Below the pieces are notes generated by a model that was not told where the DNA came from, did no database searches, and was given only the letters and a program-made list of their open reading frames with translations. A stretch of DNA of 64,000 bases from Candidatus Uhrbacteria bacterium (GTDB lineage: Bacteria > Patescibacteriota > Patescibacteriia > UBA9934): contig JABJOE010000009.1 in NCBI GenBank assembly GCA_018664485.1, positions 4,108-68,107 of the forward strand. The letters run 5' to 3'. Below, piece after piece: positions 48,937 to 56,725 of this stretch; the first letter of the stretch is position 1, and each line of letters starts with the position of its first letter. The translations under genes were made by a program, and so were the position numbers.

Positions 48937-49015
48937 GTCTACGTCAAAATACCAGCACTTACAATCCTTGTTTACTCTCCAATACTTGACAATTGCGCTA
49001 ATTTATGATAAAAAG

Positions 49016-49528
49016 ATGCGCACCCCAGGAGACAAAATGACCCCGACCTTACCACAAGTGTTCACCGGGATTGGATTCGCCCTTTTGCTGATGGGATGTT
49101 TCGGCATCATCGCCACCATCCTGATTGACGGGATCTTTCTGGTACCTGAGCGGAATAAGATCCTCAGCAGAGTGCGCCGACAAGTAATCGAATCGTCGAA
49201 AGCAAGCGACATGAGCTACGCTATATCAAGACTGCAAGCAGCTCTTGGTTGGATGTCTGACAATGACTTCGATGAGGCGTTCCCCGGCTACTACAGACAT
49301 CTGAAGAAGTGTCACGACTACCTCTCTCCGCGTATCAAGGACGTACCCATCAAGCAGAAGGTCCACCTGATGCACAACCAGCGAGAGCTTGAAAACAACT
49401 GCAACTGGGTGGTGCCGCAGAAGATGTACACCCATCGCGTGAAGTACGCGGACATCCTACACAGTATCGTTTTCTGGTCATCGCTTATCGTGTCCGCGCT
49501 TGGTCTTTTCGTTCTGATCGTGACCTGA
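49016..49528 (+). CDS. hypothetical membrane protein, tandem paralog 1 (MRTPGD... family)
   Basis: Start at the conserved ATGCGCACCCCAGGAGA. N-terminal TM and a C-terminal TM. Own TTGACA promoter at 48986. Confidence 0.5.
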   Translation: MRTPGDKMTPTLPQVFTGIGFALLLMGCFGIIATILIDGIFLVPERNKILSRVRRQVIESSKASDMSYAISRLQAALGWMSDNDFDEAFPGYYRHLKKCHDYLSPRIKDVPIKQKVHLMHNQRELENNCNWVVPQKMYTHRVKYADILHSIVFWSSLIVSALGLFVLIVT

Positions 49529-49660
49529 CCCTCTGAGCACAATGTATCTGCTCCTCGCCCTCCTCTCGCCTCGTCGAGCTGGAGGGTTGACTGCATCATA
49601 TTTTAATCGATTATTTAACGCATCCATTGCTTGACAATTCAGCTAATGAGTGCTAAAAAG

Positions 49661-50176
49661 ATGCGCACCCCAGGAGATATCATCACCCACGACGCAGAAC
49701 TTCTTTTGCTTACCGGAACCATCCTCAGCCTCATTGGAGTAATCGCATTCTTGATCTGCATCATTTTGCACATCTTGTATCTTGATCCCGAACTCAAGCT
49801 TATTGACAGAGAGGTCCTTAAGCCGATCCAGGAAGCGGCTGATGCGAGTGACATCCGCTTTGCCATTGAAAGCCTCGATGCAGTACGTGAGTGGATGACG
49901 CTCAACGGGTTCAGCGAGAGTTTTGGAGGCCTCTTCAAGCACCTTAATGGTCGGAGAGACTTCCTTGCCCATAAGACGATGGCTCAACCGCTTTATCCAC
50001 TCAAGATTCTGGCTGTCAACAAAAGCTCAATCGAGAGCCACATGAACTGGCTGCTCGTTGTAAGAATCTCTCTACATCGCGTGCGTGTACCTGGCTTCAT
50101 CTGCCTATTCAATTTGATCATACTTGGCCTCACTACGTTCCCAGGCATCTTCTTCATTGTTGAAGCCTTGCGATAA
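49661..50176 (+). CDS. hypothetical membrane protein, tandem paralog 2 (MRTPGD... family)
   Basis: Same conserved start context, promoter (TTGACA 49631-49636) and 3' hairpin (ccctcc..ctcgcctcgtcgagctggaggg) as paralog 1. Confidence 0.5.
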   Translation: MRTPGDIITHDAELLLLTGTILSLIGVIAFLICIILHILYLDPELKLIDREVLKPIQEAADASDIRFAIESLDAVREWMTLNGFSESFGGLFKHLNGRRDFLAHKTMAQPLYPLKILAVNKSSIESHMNWLLVVRISLHRVRVPGFICLFNLIILGLTTFPGIFFIVEALR

Positions 50177-50270
50177 AGATGGGCCGATTCGCCAAACAGA
50201 CGTCCAGACACACCTCGCCCTCCACCTCGCCTCGTCGAGCTGGAGGGTTGACTGCATCTGGACAAGTTTC

Positions 50271-53199: not shown

Positions 53200-53514
53200 A
53201 TGATGAAGAAATTACTTGATACAGATGGAGATGGAGACGTTGATATAGACGATTTAAAAGGTAGCTCATCTAAAGTAGCAGACGACGTACGCGAGCGAAC
53301 CATAGGCTACTTAACTGCTGCGTTTGGGCTTGTAGCCGGGCTTGCTTGGAATGATGCTATAAAGGGTTTTATCGAAGTCTACTACCCTCTTGCGCAAGAT
53401 TCGGTACTCGCAAAGTTCATATATGCTATAGCAATTACGCTTATAGTAGTTGGAATGACTACTGTGCTCATAAAGCTCTCGAAGAAACCCGAAAGCTCCG
53501 AGAAAGATAAGTAA
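53200..53514 (+). CDS. hypothetical small membrane protein with an acidic DTDGDGDVDIDD N-terminus
   Basis: 104 aa, two TM helices. Start 1 nt after the clpB stop. Confidence 0.45.
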   Translation: MMKKLLDTDGDGDVDIDDLKGSSSKVADDVRERTIGYLTAAFGLVAGLAWNDAIKGFIEVYYPLAQDSVLAKFIYAIAITLIVVGMTTVLIKLSKKPESSEKDK

Positions 53515-53697
53515 TCAATATATAAAAGAAACAATGCGTCCCAGCGGGCGTATTGTTTTTATTCAGAACGAGAAATATGCAACCCGGTTGCGTATTTATT
53601 ATTTACTTCAGAAAAGCTAAAAGTGGCTAGATAGCGAAACGCGTCCGACCCAGAGGATCAGACGCGTAGAAGCTGTTGTAGGTTGTAGCGGTGAAGC

Positions 53698-54255
53698 TCA
53701 GTCGTTGTCGATCCGGAGCTCACCATTCCGCTCCTTCCAGTCACCATCATCGATAACCTCGTCTTCCCACATCACCATGGTGGTTTCCGCCACGGCGTTG
53801 TCATCCACGAACAGGCTGGAAGCCGGTCCACCACCAATGGTGATGCTTCCGGTGCATTCTGCGTCAAAATGACTGGGAATGCTCGGAATGTAGACGATCG
53901 CCGAAAGGCCATCGGTGTAGATGTAGGGAGCAGCGGGAACGATGTCGCCATCGCTGTCCTCAACGAGGCAGCTCAGGTTCATCTGTGTGATCTCGTAGTT
54001 CGGATCCGTCATCGCTTCCTCGGCGTAGACGTTCATGATCTCGATCATGAGACCATCCTCCTGTATGGGAGCGCCGACCATGTTGCCGTTGCCGATCTCA
54101 GCGCAGATGTTGATGTTCGTGCCGCCGTTGCCGATCTCGATGAAGTCACCGAGACAGACCTTGGCGCCGAAGCTCGCATCCGACAAGTCGCATCCGCTGA
54201 GGGACAAGAACGAGACGATGGCGGCACCGGACATGAGGATCTTCTGAATGTTCAT
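53698..54255 (-). CDS. hypothetical secreted lipoprotein (G+C-rich islet)
   Basis: Start at MNIQK with an AAGGAGA SD. Signal peptide with LSLSGC lipobox. Gly/Asn-rich. Confidence 0.5.
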   Translation of the reverse strand: MNIQKILMSGAAIVSFLSLSGCDLSDASFGAKVCLGDFIEIGNGGTNINICAEIGNGNMVGAPIQEDGLMIEIMNVYAEEAMTDPNYEITQMNLSCLVEDSDGDIVPAAPYIYTDGLSAIVYIPSIPSHFDAECTGSITIGGGPASSLFVDDNAVAETTMVMWEDEVIDDGDWKERNGELRIDND

Positions 54256-54330
54256 GGGGTCTCCTTGCCTCAAATGAGGACTTAGTTTGGGGTAGGTTTC
54301 AGCGGCGCTGAATCACGTCGGATCTTTCAA

Positions 54331-54373
54331 TCACGCCGCTATGAGAATCATTCCACTCTCATAACCTCGCGAT
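54331..54373 (-). promoter_or_regulatory. conserved 43-nt 5' element containing the palindrome TATGAGA-N10-TCTCATA, copy 1
   Basis: Identical to 55015-55057. Lies about 75 nt upstream of the lipoprotein gene start. Confidence 0.55.
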
Positions 54374-54479
54374 GTTGTAAATCCGGTAAGAGGACCATCA
54401 ATGATCCGCTTGCAGGATCCCCTCGAAGCTATAAGCGCCAAGGGTCGGTGAATAGTATTCTTAGGGCCCTATACGGCCA

Positions 54480-54971
54480 CTAGTCCATCTCGATACCTTC
54501 GTAGATGGCAAAGTAGTCTCGGTCCTCGAGGTCGCACGTCTTGATGTATCCGTGGTATTTCTTGCGGATCTCTTTACACCTTGACCTAGTCACGTCCACC
54601 AAGTGATCGATAACGTCGTCGACGTCATCTTCGAGCTGATCATATCCGCCCGTGCTAGGGACGAAAATCGGCTCAACCGGTCCATTAGGATGATGTCCGT
54701 CAGGAATCTGTATGTAGGCGCCGTCGCGATAGTCGAAGTATTCCCGATCGTATGCGTCGTATCGGTACTCAGAATAGTCCCGATCGTACGTATCATAATC
54801 TACCACGAGATAGAAGCCTCTCTCTTGCTCAAACGCGATACCAATGCCGTATTCCGTGACTCCGCAAGCGGATTCGGACTCGTTCTTGAGTTGAAGTTGG
54901 GAGATATATGCACCTGCGCCTGCGATAATGAGGGCGAGAAGTGCGAGGATATTTGTAATGGTCTTGAGCAT
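54480..54971 (-). CDS. hypothetical secreted protein with a Tyr/Asp/Arg-rich repeat (YDTYDRDYSEYRYDAYDREYFDYRDGAY)
   Basis: Cleavable signal peptide. Low-complexity YD(R)(D/E)Y repeats. G+C-rich. Confidence 0.5.
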   Translation of the reverse strand: MLKTITNILALLALIIAGAGAYISQLQLKNESESACGVTEYGIGIAFEQERGFYLVVDYDTYDRDYSEYRYDAYDREYFDYRDGAYIQIPDGHHPNGPVEPIFVPSTGGYDQLEDDVDDVIDHLVDVTRSRCKEIRKKYHGYIKTCDLEDRDYFAIYEGIEMD

Positions 54972-55014
54972 GGTCTATCCGTATGCTGGGGGTGTGGGAA
55001 GAAGCGTACGTTTT

Positions 55015-55057
55015 CACGCCGCTATGAGAATCATTCCACTCTCATAACCTCGCGATA
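55015..55057 (-). promoter_or_regulatory. conserved 43-nt palindrome-containing 5' element, copy 2
   Basis: Exact duplicate of 54331-54373. About 40 nt upstream of the 54971 start. Confidence 0.55.
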
Positions 55058-55375
55058 TACAGAAAATTCGATCCTGTATAGAGAGATCGAACATATACAG
55101 GGCATGCCCTGGGACCATTTCGTTAGTCCAGAAGTTTCTTTCTCACATTCAGATCTATGTAGATTGAATCTGTGAATGAATCTCCTTACGTCTCTCTCTT
55201 CACTTGTATCTTACACGAGTCATAATAGCACAAAAATGACGTCTTGTCAAGCCCAAACCGTAGTTTATTAGCCAATCTTAGCCACTTATTTTGTTCATTT
55301 TAATCTTACAAAACATCCAAAAACACCTCTGGAAAACCTCATTTCAGCTATAGAAAATATGTTATACTTCCCACT

Positions 55376-56725
55376 ATGAAACCTCTACTTATAGCTTTAT
55401 TATTCCTTTTGCCAGTCCCCGCCCTGGCTTTCAACCCAGATTACCTTATTTCCGATTGGGAATTGGAAGATCCTTTCGCATTGGACTTCAATCAAATCCA
55501 ACATTACCTCAATCGAGGTTATTTGGGGGACTACAAAACTACAGACTGGGAAGGCGACGTCGCATACGCTACCGACATCGTATGGACGGCAGCACAAACC
55601 TATTCGTTGAACCCAAAATTTATCCTCGTACTTCTTCAAAAGGAACAGAGCCTGGTTGAAGACGACGACCCAACTCAGAACCAACTAGACTGGGCTACAG
55701 GGTACGCCGTGTGTGACAGCTGCAGTAAAGATGACCCGGCAATCCAGAGATGGAAGGGATTTGGAAAACAAGTGAACTCTGCCTCCGCACAATTCCGCGA
55801 AGGATATCTTGCCGACATTGAAAACGTAGGATCAACCCAAGGTAAATACGGACCAGACATCGAAGTAGAGATCGATGGAACTACAGTCACGCCATCGAAT
55901 GCCGCAACGGCAGCACTCTACGCATATACCCCTCACCTGCACGGAAACGAAAACTTTGTAAAAATCTGGGACCGCTGGTTCTCACAACAGTACCCAAGTG
56001 GAAGTCTCCTCCAAGGTGATGGCGAAAGCGGCGTGTACTACATCGAGTTTGGCTACAAGCGAGCAATACATAGCTGGAGCGCTTTGCAGTCTCGATTCGA
56101 CGCAGACCTTATCATCACAGTGAACCCAAACATCCTTGAAAACTATCCAGACGGTGCCCCGATTGATTTCCCGAACTATTCCCTTCTCCAAGATGAGGAC
56201 GGAACAATCTACCTTCTTGTAGACGACACTCTTCGGCCAGTCGATAGCTTGGACACATTCCACTCATTCGGATTCGTTGAGGATGAACTTACTGATATTG
56301 ATAACGACGACCTTGTTTATTTCGAGATTGGTGAAACGATTACTGAAGCTTCAAAGAGTCCTGAAGGTGAAATCCTACAGCTCTCAACAAACGGTGCCCT
56401 GTTTTTCATCCAAGACGGACAAAGACATATCCTACTTGATGAAGCGTTGATTGATATGCGATTCTCAGGAACAAGCGTTCGTGAAGTATTACCAATGGAA
56501 GTTGAGCAATATACTGAAGGTGACGCAGTTATCATTCCTGAAGGTCATCTTGTAAAGTCCATCGAGGATCCAACTGTATACGTGATTTCTGAAACAGAAC
56601 GACTTCCGATTGGTTCTGAATCAGCTTTCACTACCTATGGTTGGTCATGGGATGATATCGAAACTGTAAACGCATCATTACTCAAACAGCATCGAATTGG
56701 TGATGCTATCGAAGTCTCAGAATAG
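55376..56725 (+). CDS. hypothetical secreted protein (signal peptide; acidic)
   Basis: MKPLLIALLFLLPVPALA signal peptide. 449 aa. No recognised motif. Confidence 0.5.
   Translation: MKPLLIALLFLLPVPALAFNPDYLISDWELEDPFALDFNQIQHYLNRGYLGDYKTTDWEGDVAYATDIVWTAAQTYSLNPKFILVLLQKEQSLVEDDDPTQNQLDWATGYAVCDSCSKDDPAIQRWKGFGKQVNSASAQFREGYLADIENVGSTQGKYGPDIEVEIDGTTVTPSNAATAALYAYTPHLHGNENFVKIWDRWFSQQYPSGSLLQGDGESGVYYIEFGYKRAIHSWSALQSRFDADLIITVNPNILENYPDGAPIDFPNYSLLQDEDGTIYLLVDDTLRPVDSLDTFHSFGFVEDELTDIDNDDLVYFEIGETITEASKSPEGEILQLSTNGALFFIQDGQRHILLDEALIDMRFSGTSVREVLPMEVEQYTEGDAVIIPEGHLVKSIEDPTVYVISETERLPIGSESAFTTYGWSWDDIETVNASLLKQHRIGDAIEVSE

What the first reader, a model, noticed from the sequence alone, without database searches (positions are those of the whole stretch)
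53600..55100. G+C-rich two-gene secreted-protein islet with an exactly duplicated 43-nt palindromic 5' element; one product has a YD-rich repeat
Downstream of clpB, two minus-strand genes encode a Gly/Asn-rich lipoprotein and a signal-peptide protein carrying a striking Tyr/Asp/Arg repeat (YDTYDRDYSEYRYDAYDREYFDYRDGAY). Each gene is preceded, 40-75 nt upstream of its start, by the identical 43-nt sequence TCACGCCGCTATGAGAATCATTCCACTCTCATAACCTCGCGAT (plus-strand reading). This contains the 7-bp-arm inverted repeat TATGAGA-N10-TCTCATA. Exact duplication of a palindromic site in front of two otherwise dissimilar genes implies a shared dimeric regulator operator or a shared RNA leader structure, and hence a small regulon of secreted proteins acquired as a unit. 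The YD-rich acidic repeat could bind cations or a surface, or be post-translationally modified.
Basis: seen in the sequence. Interest (0 to 1): 0.6.

Follow-up and report, generated by a model that had tools for sequence, protein, structure and literature searches.

The report
Duplicated 43-nt hairpin bracketing an inserted gene
Two exact copies of a 43-base stem-loop sit before two secreted-protein genes of a tiny uncultured bacterium (Candidatus Uhrbacteria); they most likely act in the messenger RNA of one operon, and they bracket a gene found only in this lineage, so this is a modest curiosity, not a new regulon or an imported gene island.

Summary
The 43-mer occurs exactly twice (54331-54373, 55014-55056), 75 and 42 nt upstream of two minus-strand genes, and the flanks are unrelated.

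The whole 43-mer is one hairpin: 16 pairs, three of them G-U, a 2x2 internal loop and a GGAAUG loop. It folds at -21.4 kcal/mol on the gene-sense strand and -8.8 on the other.

The "islet acquired as a unit" reading fails. The lipoprotein belongs to a small Patescibacteria family fixed at one syntenic locus (PriA-LigB-448 aa protein, divergent lipoprotein, ClpB nearby). Its GC3 is high in every genome, and it follows a conserved strong sigma-70 promoter. In relatives a pseudoknotted leader with a terminator lies in between; no Rfam family matches it.

The Tyr/Asp-rich gene has no homologs. It is absent from this locus in all relatives and is bracketed by the two 43-mers. No third copy turned up in the 64-kb window, the relatives' loci or the public scans. 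No regulator or recombinase lies within 10 kb.

Best reading (0.4): a stem-loop acting in the mRNA before each cistron of one leader-controlled operon. Rivals: recombination-site footprint of a gene cassette, DNA operator, REP-like repeat. The function is inferred, not shown.

The parts
55014..55056 (-). 43-mer copy A. Sense-strand hairpin AUCGCGAGGUUAUGAGAGUGGAAUGAUUCUCAUAGCGGCGUGA. It starts 4 nt after the U-run of the leader terminator and ends 42 nt before the ATG of the Tyr/Asp-rich gene.
   Evidence: Exact repeat. RNA fold -21.4 kcal/mol, z = -6.1 on the minus strand, against -8.8 on the plus strand. Covariance model R1 scores 72.7 bits.
54331..54373 (-). 43-mer copy B. Identical hairpin in the gap between the two genes, 106 nt after the stop of the Tyr/Asp-rich gene and 75 nt before the lipoprotein ATG.
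   Evidence: It forms the same independent hairpin when the whole intergenic region is folded.
54480..54971 (-). Gene for a 163-aa protein with no homologs. It has an N-terminal signal or anchor helix and two 12-aa Tyr/Asp/Arg-rich repeat units (DNA 54714-54785). It is absent from this locus in all relatives.
   Evidence: ORF. Only self-hits among 5.8 billion proteins. No Pfam, NCBIfam or PHROGs family. A strain variant lacks exactly 36 nt, one repeat unit. Structure model unreliable, pLDDT 43.6.
53698..54255 (-). Gene for a 185-aa lipoprotein (lipobox LSLSGC). It belongs to a small family specific to Patescibacteria and has GC3 of 0.76.
   Evidence: Synteny. GC3.
55222..55250 (-). Sigma-70 promoter TTGACA-17-TATTAT with a TG extension (11 of 12 consensus positions). 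It is the only promoter-like site on the minus strand upstream of the two genes, and it is conserved in all relatives.
55061..55215 (-). Structured 5' leader, about 155 nt. It holds a GA run AGAGAGAGA (55191-55199) and a CU run UCUCUCU (55080-55086). The CU run lies in the loop of a weak terminator hairpin (stem 55085-55091 with 55067-55073) followed by UUUUCU (55061-55066). This is a reduced version of the pseudoknotted leader of the relatives.
   Evidence: Whole-leader fold z = -5.0. Terminator hairpin -9.3 kcal/mol. Comparison with relatives. The relatives' model R2 does not detect it. The transcription start near 55215 is inferred from the promoter.
53639..53667 (-). Strong hairpin (13-bp stem) 30 nt after the lipoprotein stop codon. 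It is the likely 3' end of the transcription unit.
   Evidence: -27.2 kcal/mol for the 71-nt stretch, z = -4.8.
54256..54330 (-). Proximal 5' UTR of the lipoprotein gene: small hairpin UUCAGCGCCGCUGAA, C/A-rich tract CCUACCCCAAAC, small hairpin CCUCAUUUGAGG, then the Shine-Dalgarno sequence AAGGAGA. The relatives show the same order of elements.
   Evidence: Sequence. Folds.

Best explanation
The 43-mer is a self-contained stem-loop that forms in the sense-strand RNA. It has a 5-bp lower stem, a 2x2 internal loop, an 11-bp upper stem and a GGAAUG loop.

Both copies lie inside one transcription unit. A conserved strong sigma-70 promoter (55250-55222) drives a structured leader with a weak terminator (55215-55061). 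Copy A follows, then the Tyr/Asp-rich gene, then copy B, then the lipoprotein gene, then a strong 3' hairpin (53667-53639). Each cistron therefore starts with the same RNA hairpin.

I infer that the hairpin works after transcription. It could be a double-strand-specific cleavage site (RNase III type), a protective 5' or 3' end structure, or the docking site for one RNA-binding factor. Either way the two secreted proteins would be handled alike.

The duplication arose when the lineage-specific Tyr/Asp-rich gene was placed between the ancestral leader and the lipoprotein gene. Relatives carry a different long hairpin at the place where copy B sits.

Shown: exact duplication, hairpin geometry, strand bias, one conserved promoter, synteny, and that the Tyr/Asp-rich gene is an insert.
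Inferred: co-transcription, action at the RNA level, and the processing or stability role.
For: - The hairpin spans the whole repeat. It folds at -21.4 kcal/mol on the minus strand (z = -6.1; 0 of 200 shuffles fold as well) and only -8.8 on the plus strand. All three non-Watson-Crick pairs are G-U on the gene-sense strand.
- The same hairpin forms on its own when the whole leader and the whole intergenic region are folded.
- Identity ends within 1 nt of the base of the stem, and the flanks are unrelated. The hairpin itself is therefore the repeated unit.
- The only minus-strand promoter-like site in 53400-55500 is at 55250-55222 (11 of 12, TG extension). No terminator-like site lies between the two genes. 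This promoter is conserved in seven lineages.
- The relatives share the layout: promoter, leader with terminator, long hairpin, small hairpin, C-rich tract, small hairpin, Shine-Dalgarno sequence, lipoprotein gene. Copy B is 75 nt from the ATG, the position where the relatives' long hairpin ends (roughly 45-85 nt, by my count).
- A second gene pair 4.5 kb away offers a precedent in this genome. The proteins at 49016-49528 and 49661-50176 are 31% identical, yet each gene keeps a 46-nt hairpin 95.6% identical to the other's.
Against: - Two identical copies give no covariation, so the RNA structure is a prediction only.
- The strand bias rests on three positions. If they are taken as three random transitions in a DNA palindrome, the chance that all favour the sense strand is about 0.125.
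- The 43-mer has no counterpart in any relative and no Rfam match.
- The relatives' long hairpin shows no consistent strand preference and is more stable on the antisense strand in four of five lineages.
- Exact 43/43 identity with sharp edges, in direct orientation, bracketing the one lineage-specific gene is also what a recombination site would leave behind.
- The spacing to the start codons differs (42 and 75 nt).
- There are no expression data.
Confidence: 0.4

Rival explanations
1. Recombination-site footprint. The two 43-mers are the attL/attR-like direct repeats left when a 683-bp single-gene cassette (the Tyr/Asp-rich gene plus one site) recombined into an identical site in the lipoprotein 5' UTR. 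The site has imperfect inverted arms around an asymmetric GGAAUG centre, as lox, FRT and dif core sites do. Any effect on RNA would be secondary.
For: - The repeats are direct, 100% identical and sharply bounded, with unrelated flanks.
- They bracket exactly the gene that is missing from this conserved locus in all relatives.
- Removing one repeat plus the segment between would leave 4 + 43 + 75 nt between terminator and ATG (sequence), much like L046.
- The gene has no homologs and an atypical GC3 of 0.60.
Against: - No recombinase, integrase or transposase lies within about 10 kb, and none was found among ten further window ORFs.
- No contig with the deletion junction or a circle junction appears among 13 contigs from other samples.
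- The site occurs nowhere else in GTDB genomes, JGI metagenomes or IMG/VR.
- Extra ORFs at the same place in relatives are not flanked by direct repeats.
- The arms match at only 13 of 18 positions.
- High GC3 is not a sign of foreign origin here, because the native lipoprotein gene is even higher.
Confidence: 0.22
2. DNA operator. A dimeric DNA-binding regulator encoded elsewhere recognises TATGAGA-N10-TCTCATA and represses both genes by blocking elongation.
For: A perfect 7-bp inverted repeat sits in identical copies before both genes.
Against: - No minus-strand promoter-like site lies at either copy for an operator to overlap.
- The half-site centres are 17 bp apart, so they do not sit on one face of the helix as in most helix-turn-helix dimer sites (general knowledge).
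- The identity covers 43 nt, far more than an operator needs, including an outer stem that is fully complementary only as RNA.
- No regulator gene was found nearby.
- Near-matches to the half-site pattern in the window are at chance level: 5 found including the two copies, 3.5 expected.
Confidence: 0.1
3. REP-like or miniature mobile palindrome, or a recent neutral duplicate. A small hairpin element, perhaps moved by a Y1/HUH-type transposase acting on single-stranded DNA, landed twice in neighbouring intergenic regions, with more copies elsewhere in the genome. It would have no specific role for these genes.
For: - The repeated unit is the hairpin itself.
- The strand-specific imperfect palindrome resembles REP and IS200/IS605 end hairpins (my recollection of those families).
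- 100% identity suggests a recent copy.
Against: - Only two copies exist in 64 kb, which is 6.5% of the 986-kb contig. None scores better than E = 0.25 with the covariance model.
- The JGI sample that holds the locus (L027) gave no other hit.
- There is no GTAG-type 5' motif (sequence).
- No transposase is nearby.
- No relatives of the element were found in the other genomes scanned.
Confidence: 0.15

Closest known systems
Intercistronic and REP stem-loops that set differential mRNA stability within operons (for example malE-malF of E. coli)
   Same: A stable hairpin without a U-run, in the sense strand between cistrons of one operon, in repeated copies of near-identical sequence.
   Different: REP elements occur in tens to hundreds of copies per genome, have a characteristic 5' tetranucleotide and come with RAYT transposases. 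Here only two copies are known, none of those features is present, and one copy lies in the 5' leader instead of after a gene.
RNase III processing signals between genes of phage T7 early mRNA (R1.1 type)
   Same: Hairpins with upper and lower stems split by an internal loop. They recur before successive cistrons of one transcript and give each message a defined structured end.
   Different: There is no sequence similarity. The helix is shorter (16 pairs plus a 2x2 loop). Cleavage is untested, and the organism's RNase III was not examined.
Core sites of tyrosine recombinases (loxP, FRT, dif) and the direct repeats that flank integrated elements
   Same: Inverted arms around a short asymmetric centre. 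Two identical copies in direct orientation bracket a segment absent from related genomes. Identity stops sharply at the site edges.
   Different: The arms are imperfect (13 of 18). No recombinase gene is nearby, no excision product was seen, and there is no resemblance to the dif consensus.
Integron attC sites and gene cassettes
   Same: A single short promoterless ORF of unknown function with a signal peptide. It points the same way as its neighbour, is read from an upstream promoter and is bounded by a strand-specific hairpin site.
   Different: An attC site is 57-141 nt with RYYYAAC and GTTRRRY boxes at its ends. The 43-mer matches these boxes at only 5 of 7 positions each and in the wrong order. 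No intI gene or attI site is present, and the neighbouring gene is a conserved chromosomal gene, not a cassette.
Riboswitch or attenuator leaders built on an H-type pseudoknot (preQ1-I, SAM-II, fluoride classes). This applies to the relatives' leader, not to the 43-mer.
   Same: A strong promoter, a compact pseudoknot with compensatory changes, and a terminator whose loop holds a strand that can instead pair with the 5' GA run.
   Different: No Rfam family matches. The ligand or factor is unknown. The window's own leader has lost the pseudoknot.

Membership tests
Integron attC site | R'' box RYYYAAC at the 5' end and R' box GTTRRRY at the 3' end of the top strand | tested here: not met
   Read from the sequence. 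The best matches are GTTATGA and TCATAAC, 5 of 7 each. They lie in the order GTT...AGC/AAC, the reverse of an attC site.
Integron attC site | Length 57-141 nt, with an integron integrase gene and attI site beside the array | tested here: not met
   The unit is 43 nt. No integrase domain appears in the precomputed Pfam calls for about 10 kb on each side.
REP / BIME elements | Many dispersed copies per genome | tested here: inconclusive
   Only two copies in 64 kb. The next best covariance-model hit has E = 0.25. No other hit came from the JGI sample holding this locus. The remaining 93% of the 986-kb contig could not be searched.
REP / BIME elements | Conserved 5' GTAG-type tetranucleotide next to the stem, and a RAYT transposase in the genome | tested here: not met
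   The sequence starts AUCGCG and has no GTAG. RAYT could be checked only within about 10 kb, where it is absent.
Intrinsic (Rho-independent) terminator | G+C-rich hairpin followed directly by a U-run | tested here: not met
   The hairpin is present, but it is followed by AAAACG (copy A) and UUGAAAG (copy B). The terminator scan does not call it.
Any Rfam 15 RNA family | Match to a curated covariance model | tested here: not met
   No hit covers either copy at E up to 10. The whole window has no hit at gathering threshold.
Operator of a dimeric DNA-binding regulator | Inverted half-sites that overlap or adjoin a promoter, with a cognate regulator gene | tested here: inconclusive
   Half-sites are present. 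No minus-strand promoter-like site lies at either copy. No HTH gene lies within about 10 kb or among ten other ORFs. A regulator elsewhere in the genome cannot be excluded.
Tyrosine-recombinase core site pair | Inverted arms around a 6-8 bp asymmetric spacer, a recombinase gene, and excision or integration products | tested here: inconclusive
   The geometry fits loosely (arms 13 of 18, centre GGAAUG). No recombinase is nearby. No junction variants appear among 13 contigs from other samples.
RNase III substrate | Roughly two turns of double-stranded RNA, often with an internal loop, cleaved in vivo or in vitro | not testable with these tools
   The helix of 16 pairs plus a 2x2 loop is compatible. 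Cleavage needs an experiment.
Riboswitch-like attenuator (relatives' leader) | Conserved structured core supported by covariation, plus a terminator with an alternative pairing | tested here: met
   Five different complementary versions of the pseudoknot helix. Strong terminators. Model R2 finds it at E of 1e-22 to 1e-26 in L041, L043, L048, L049 and L054, the last one not used to build the model. It is not met in the window itself. No ligand is known.

The most novel reading that the evidence does not exclude
The two 43-mers are the recombination sites of a gene-cassette system unrelated to integrons. In that case the Tyr/Asp-rich secreted-protein gene is a 'floxed' single-gene cassette that can be cut out of, and inserted into, the 5' UTR of a conserved and probably strongly expressed surface lipoprotein operon in an ultra-small CPR bacterium. 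This would be a way to swap surface proteins under one strong, leader-controlled promoter.
Probability: 0.15. Interest if true: 0.7.

Novelty: new member of a known kind. Interest (0 to 1): 0.38.

Why it matters
The 43-mer alone is a small matter. It is a repeated stem-loop of unknown role in front of two uncharacterised surface proteins of an uncultured Uhrbacterium. It does matter as a marker of how this locus is built.

Following it showed that a family of lipoproteins specific to Patescibacteria sits at a fixed chromosomal position. The family lies behind a near-consensus promoter and, in most lineages, a pseudoknotted leader with a terminator that matches no known RNA family. The genes under this control keep a far higher GC3 than the rest of their AT-rich genomes.

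If the leader is a real sensor, it would be a new regulatory RNA class in a group of bacteria whose regulation and cell-surface biology are almost unknown. If the 43-mers are recombination sites, they would show a way of exchanging surface-protein genes in very small genomes.

Tried and rejected
1. Wider copies of the element.
   - Scans with GCTATGAGA-N10-TCTCATAAC of GTDB genomes and JGI metagenomes, and a looser pattern on IMG/VR, returned only the same locus (L027) plus chance hits.
   - The chance hits include an unrelated NC10-type repeat and phage tRNA-linked repeats.
   - The 986-kb source contig is in none of the searchable collections.
2. Strain variation.
   - Thirteen other contigs differ from the window by at most one SNP or one 36-nt deletion, so nothing can be said about constraint.
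3. Diverged copies.
   - The single-sequence covariance model R1 found none in the window or in the relatives.
4. Promoter inside the 43-mer.
   - No sigma-70-like site was called on the minus strand at either copy. By eye I saw no convincing sigma-54 or ECF pattern.
5. Larger duplication with a conserved core.
   - Rejected, because flank similarity is at chance.
6. The two proteins as diverged paralogs.
   - No similarity.
7. Recent horizontal transfer of the whole islet.
   - Rejected for the lipoprotein.
   - No plasmid or phage DNA match and no PHROGs hit.
8. Integron attC, REP, intrinsic terminator, any Rfam family.
   - See the membership tests.
9. Homology between the 43-mer and the relatives' long hairpin.
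   - R1 found none. The two share only position.
10. Structure prediction.
    - Both models are too poor to use (pLDDT 49.3 and 43.6), so no fold search was run.
11. Direct repeats around the extra ORFs in relatives.
    - None.
12. Literature.
    - Three full-text searches found nothing on such elements in Patescibacteria.
Full report
**1. Observation**

The 43-mer occurs exactly twice, at 54331-54373 and 55014-55056. Chance expects none, and no near-match appears at up to 3 mismatches or 12 substitutions. The repeat is exactly 43 nt. The sequences on either side of the two copies are no more alike than shuffled sequence (p = 0.59 and 0.92).

Both copies precede minus-strand ORFs:
- Copy A ends 42 nt before the ATG of a 163-aa protein (54971..54480) that carries the Tyr/Asp/Arg repeat.
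- Copy B ends 75 nt before the ATG (54255) of a 185-aa lipoprotein.

Thirteen further contigs, from ENA and JGI metagenome assemblies of other samples, carry the same sequence. It is not an assembly artefact. Protein names given by NCBI place the organism in Candidatus Uhrbacteria, and the source contig is 986 kb long.

**2. Anatomy of the 43-mer**

In fact the entire unit is a hairpin on the minus strand, which is the sense strand of both genes:
- a 5-bp lower stem, a 2x2 internal loop (AG/GG), an 11-bp upper stem and a GGAAUG loop;
- 16 pairs in all, three of them G-U.

As RNA it folds at -21.4 kcal/mol (z = -6.1). The plus strand reaches only -8.8, because the G-U pairs become C-A mismatches there. 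As single-stranded DNA both strands fold weakly (-6.8 and -4.9). The hairpin also forms as an independent domain when the whole leader or the whole intergenic region is folded.

The edges of the repeat coincide with the base of the stem to within 1 nt. The hairpin itself is thus the unit that was copied or kept.

The strand bias is only suggestive. It rests on three positions. If they are treated as random transitions in a palindrome, the chance that all three favour the sense strand is about 1 in 8.

**3. Context in the window**

The only promoter-like site on the minus strand between 53400 and 55500 is TTGACA-17-TATTAT with a TG extension, at 55250-55222. It matches 11 of 12 consensus positions. 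Downstream of it, in order:
- a structured leader of about 155 nt (z = -5.0);
- within it, a GA run AGAGAGAGA (55191-55199) and a CU run UCUCUCU (55080-55086);
- a weak terminator hairpin that holds the CU run in its loop, followed by UUUUCU (55061-55091; -9.3 kcal/mol);
- copy A, starting 4 nt later.

No terminator-like site separates the two genes. A strong hairpin follows the lipoprotein stop codon (53639-53667).

The simplest reading is one operon: promoter, leader, copy A, Tyr/Asp-rich gene, copy B, lipoprotein gene. Co-transcription is inferred, not shown.

**4. Relatives**

The Tyr/Asp-rich protein has no homolog outside its own 90% cluster among 5.8 billion proteins.

The lipoprotein has a small family:
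- 7 hits (E up to 0.001) among 1.84 billion cluster representatives;
- 10 hits with a profile search;
- every source name given is Patescibacteria, Uhrbacteria or an unclassified bacterial MAG.

The locus is fixed in L040, L043-L045, L046 and L054-L056. The genes for PriA, a LigB-domain protein and a 448-468 aa protein point one way, and the lipoprotein gene points the other way, 450-970 nt away. DUF5654 or ClpB genes follow further on in L010, L040 and L054. The window has the same layout with the Tyr/Asp-rich gene added.

Lipoprotein GC3 is 0.63-0.88 in every lineage, against a G+C content of 0.39-0.51 in the surrounding DNA and a GC3 of 0.37-0.53 in the neighbouring 448-aa gene. In the window, most of the ORFs I tabulated have GC3 of 0.33-0.45, the ATP synthase genes included. 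High G+C is therefore a lasting trait of this gene family, not a mark of recent import. 'Acquired as a unit' is not supported. Only the Tyr/Asp-rich gene is lineage-specific, and the two 43-mers bracket it.

**5. The conserved upstream region**

Every relative has the same promoter. In L041, L043, L048, L049, L050 and L054 a conserved RNA follows:
- a GAGAGAG run;
- a CCC...GGG hairpin whose loop pairs with a segment just downstream, forming an H-type pseudoknot;
- a variable hairpin;
- a strong terminator whose loop holds UCUCUC.

The pseudoknot helix takes five different complementary forms: ACUUCU/AGAAGU, GCUUCU/AGAAGC, GUCU/AGAC, GUCC/GGAC and GCCC/GGGC. That is real covariation.

The UCUCUC segment can pair either inside the terminator or with the 5' GA run, as in a riboswitch expression platform. 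This alternative pairing is my reading of the sequences. The GA/CU helix itself does not covary.

A model built from four of these sequences (R2) performs as follows:
- It finds the element at E = 4e-25 in L054, which was not used to build it. The L054 protein is only 24% identical to the window's.
- It finds it only weakly in L046 (E = 0.044) and L040 (E = 0.24).
- It does not find it in the window.

No Rfam family matches. The window keeps the promoter, the GA run, the CU run and a weak terminator, but it has lost the pseudoknot.

After the terminator the relatives have, in order: a long inverted repeat of about 20 bp per arm with a conserved loop, a small hairpin, a C-rich tract, a small hairpin, and the Shine-Dalgarno sequence. 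The window has the last four elements after copy B. Copy B therefore stands where the relatives' long hairpin stands. Model R1 finds no sequence similarity between the two. The relatives' hairpin shows no consistent strand bias.

**6. What the 43-mer most likely is**

The element is discrete, hairpin-shaped and biased to the sense strand. It lies inside a transcription unit, not at a promoter, and it takes the place of another hairpin in a structured 5' UTR. I therefore favour an RNA-level cis element that precedes each cistron. It could be a processing site, a stability hairpin or a factor-binding site (confidence 0.4).

A nearby precedent exists. The proteins at 49016-49528 and 49661-50176 are 31% identical, yet each gene keeps a 46-nt hairpin 95.6% identical to the other's.

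The main rival (0.22) is that the direct repeats are the scars of a site-specific or homologous recombination that inserted a 683-bp cassette.
- For it: sharp edges, perfect identity, direct orientation, and the bracketing of the only lineage-specific gene.
- Against it: no recombinase within about 10 kb, no junction variants, no other copies anywhere, and no such repeats around the extra ORFs of relatives.

The two models are not exclusive. One concerns origin, the other present function.

A DNA operator (0.1) is weak. No minus-strand promoter-like site lies at either copy, the half-site spacing is awkward, 43 nt of identity is more than an operator needs, and no regulator is nearby.

A REP-like mobile palindrome or neutral duplicate (0.15) cannot be excluded until the whole genome is scanned. 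It is not a high-copy element in the 6.5% of the contig that I could see.

**7. The proteins**

The lipoprotein has a lipobox (LSLSGC) and a conserved C-terminal half (VPSHF..C.G...WEDE...ERN.EL.ID). It has no Pfam, NCBIfam or PHROGs family.

The Tyr/Asp-rich protein has an N-terminal hydrophobic helix, with a possible AGA cleavage site by my reading. It carries two 12-aa units (DRDYSEYRYDAY and DREYFDYRDGAY). One strain variant (L053) lacks exactly one unit, a 36-nt in-frame deletion. The repeat number therefore varies in the population.

Both structure models are unreliable (pLDDT 49.3 and 43.6). I make no claim about fold, metal binding or modification.

**8. Verdict**

The 43-mer is a new, family-less example of a known kind of thing. 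Its function is inferred, not shown. The more interesting by-products are the conserved pseudoknotted leader and the persistent GC3 anomaly of the genes behind it.

Noticed in passing
L041:578-710, L043:5628-5762, L048:94-240, L049:70-201, L054:3687-3822 (weak: L046:5746-5901, L040:5309-5450); window counterpart 55061-55215 (-): A conserved leader RNA lies behind a near-consensus promoter upstream of the lipoprotein family. It has a GAGAGAG run, an H-type pseudoknot with five compensating versions of one helix, and a strong terminator whose loop holds UCUCUC. No Rfam family matches. It is a candidate new attenuator or riboswitch-like motif of Uhrbacteria. The window's copy has lost the pseudoknot.
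   Followed up: partly
window 53698-54255 and 54480-54971; lipoprotein genes in L010, L040, L041, L043, L046, L048, L049, L050: The lipoprotein genes keep GC3 of 0.63-0.88 in AT-rich genomes, where the neighbouring 448-aa gene has GC3 of 0.37-0.53. The Tyr/Asp-rich gene (0.60) is raised too, and the small ORFs between leader and lipoprotein in L040 and L049 look G+C-rich by eye. ATP synthase genes in the window are not raised, so simple expression-linked codon bias does not explain it.
   Followed up: partly
window 54742-54777 (L053): A strain variant has an exact 36-nt in-frame deletion that removes one of the two 12-aa Tyr/Asp/Arg repeat units (151 aa instead of 163). The repeat number is polymorphic in the population.
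   Followed up: yes
window 48968-50260: Two tandem paralogous genes for small membrane proteins (GC3 0.65 and 0.58) are only 31% identical as proteins. Yet they keep an 82%-identical promoter and 5' region (48978-49047, 49623-49693) and a 95.6%-identical 46-nt hairpin after each stop codon (49553-49597, 50213-50258).
   Followed up: partly
L043:5840-5930, L054:3843-3916, L049:460-543, L050, L041; L048 about 330-560: A long inverted repeat (about 20-27 nt per arm) with a conserved loop sequence (CTTTACAA.TCTCTCA.TCCAC) lies between the terminator and the lipoprotein gene in relatives. It shows no consistent strand bias. The loop is complementary to the purine-rich Shine-Dalgarno region downstream. 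In L048 the loop carries an insertion of about 190 nt that seems to have its own terminal inverted repeats.
   Followed up: partly
L046:5465-5753: Between the promoter and the leader core, L046 has two 174-nt tandem repeats (96% identical) made of shorter units that each end in (A/G)ACGAAC.
   Followed up: no
window 55360-55378 (+): The divergent 449-aa gene has an extended -10 box (TGtTATACT, 55360-55368) that ends 7 nt before its ATG (55376), so its mRNA is probably leaderless. The relatives show a TATAAT-like box at the same distance from their start codons.
   Followed up: no
window 55098-55111: A perfect 14-nt palindrome, CAGGGCATGCCCTG, lies inside the leader. The scan called it a terminator-like site on the minus strand.
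   Followed up: no
window 55014-55034 and 54331-54351 (-): The 43-mer contains a six-codon mini-ORF (AUG AUU CUC AUA GCG GCG UGA). Its AUG lies in the hairpin loop and its stop codon is the last three bases of the repeat. This may well be coincidence.
   Followed up: no
L011, L023, L025, L031, L033, L035, L037, L038: The pattern scans hit, by chance, an unrelated repeat family with the core GGGGCTATGAGA(G/A)A.(T/C)C.C(C/A)GATCTCATAACC. The one genome record among them (L011) is an NC10 MAG; the others are metagenome contigs.
   Followed up: no
L019:12370-12518, L034:7578-7660: 41-nt tandem repeats (GAGCTATGAGAGCAAGTAGGCTCTCATAACACGCTTTCGCG) lie next to what look like tRNA genes (by eye) in a viral contig (L019) and a metagenome contig (L034). 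They are another chance hit of the pattern.
   Followed up: no
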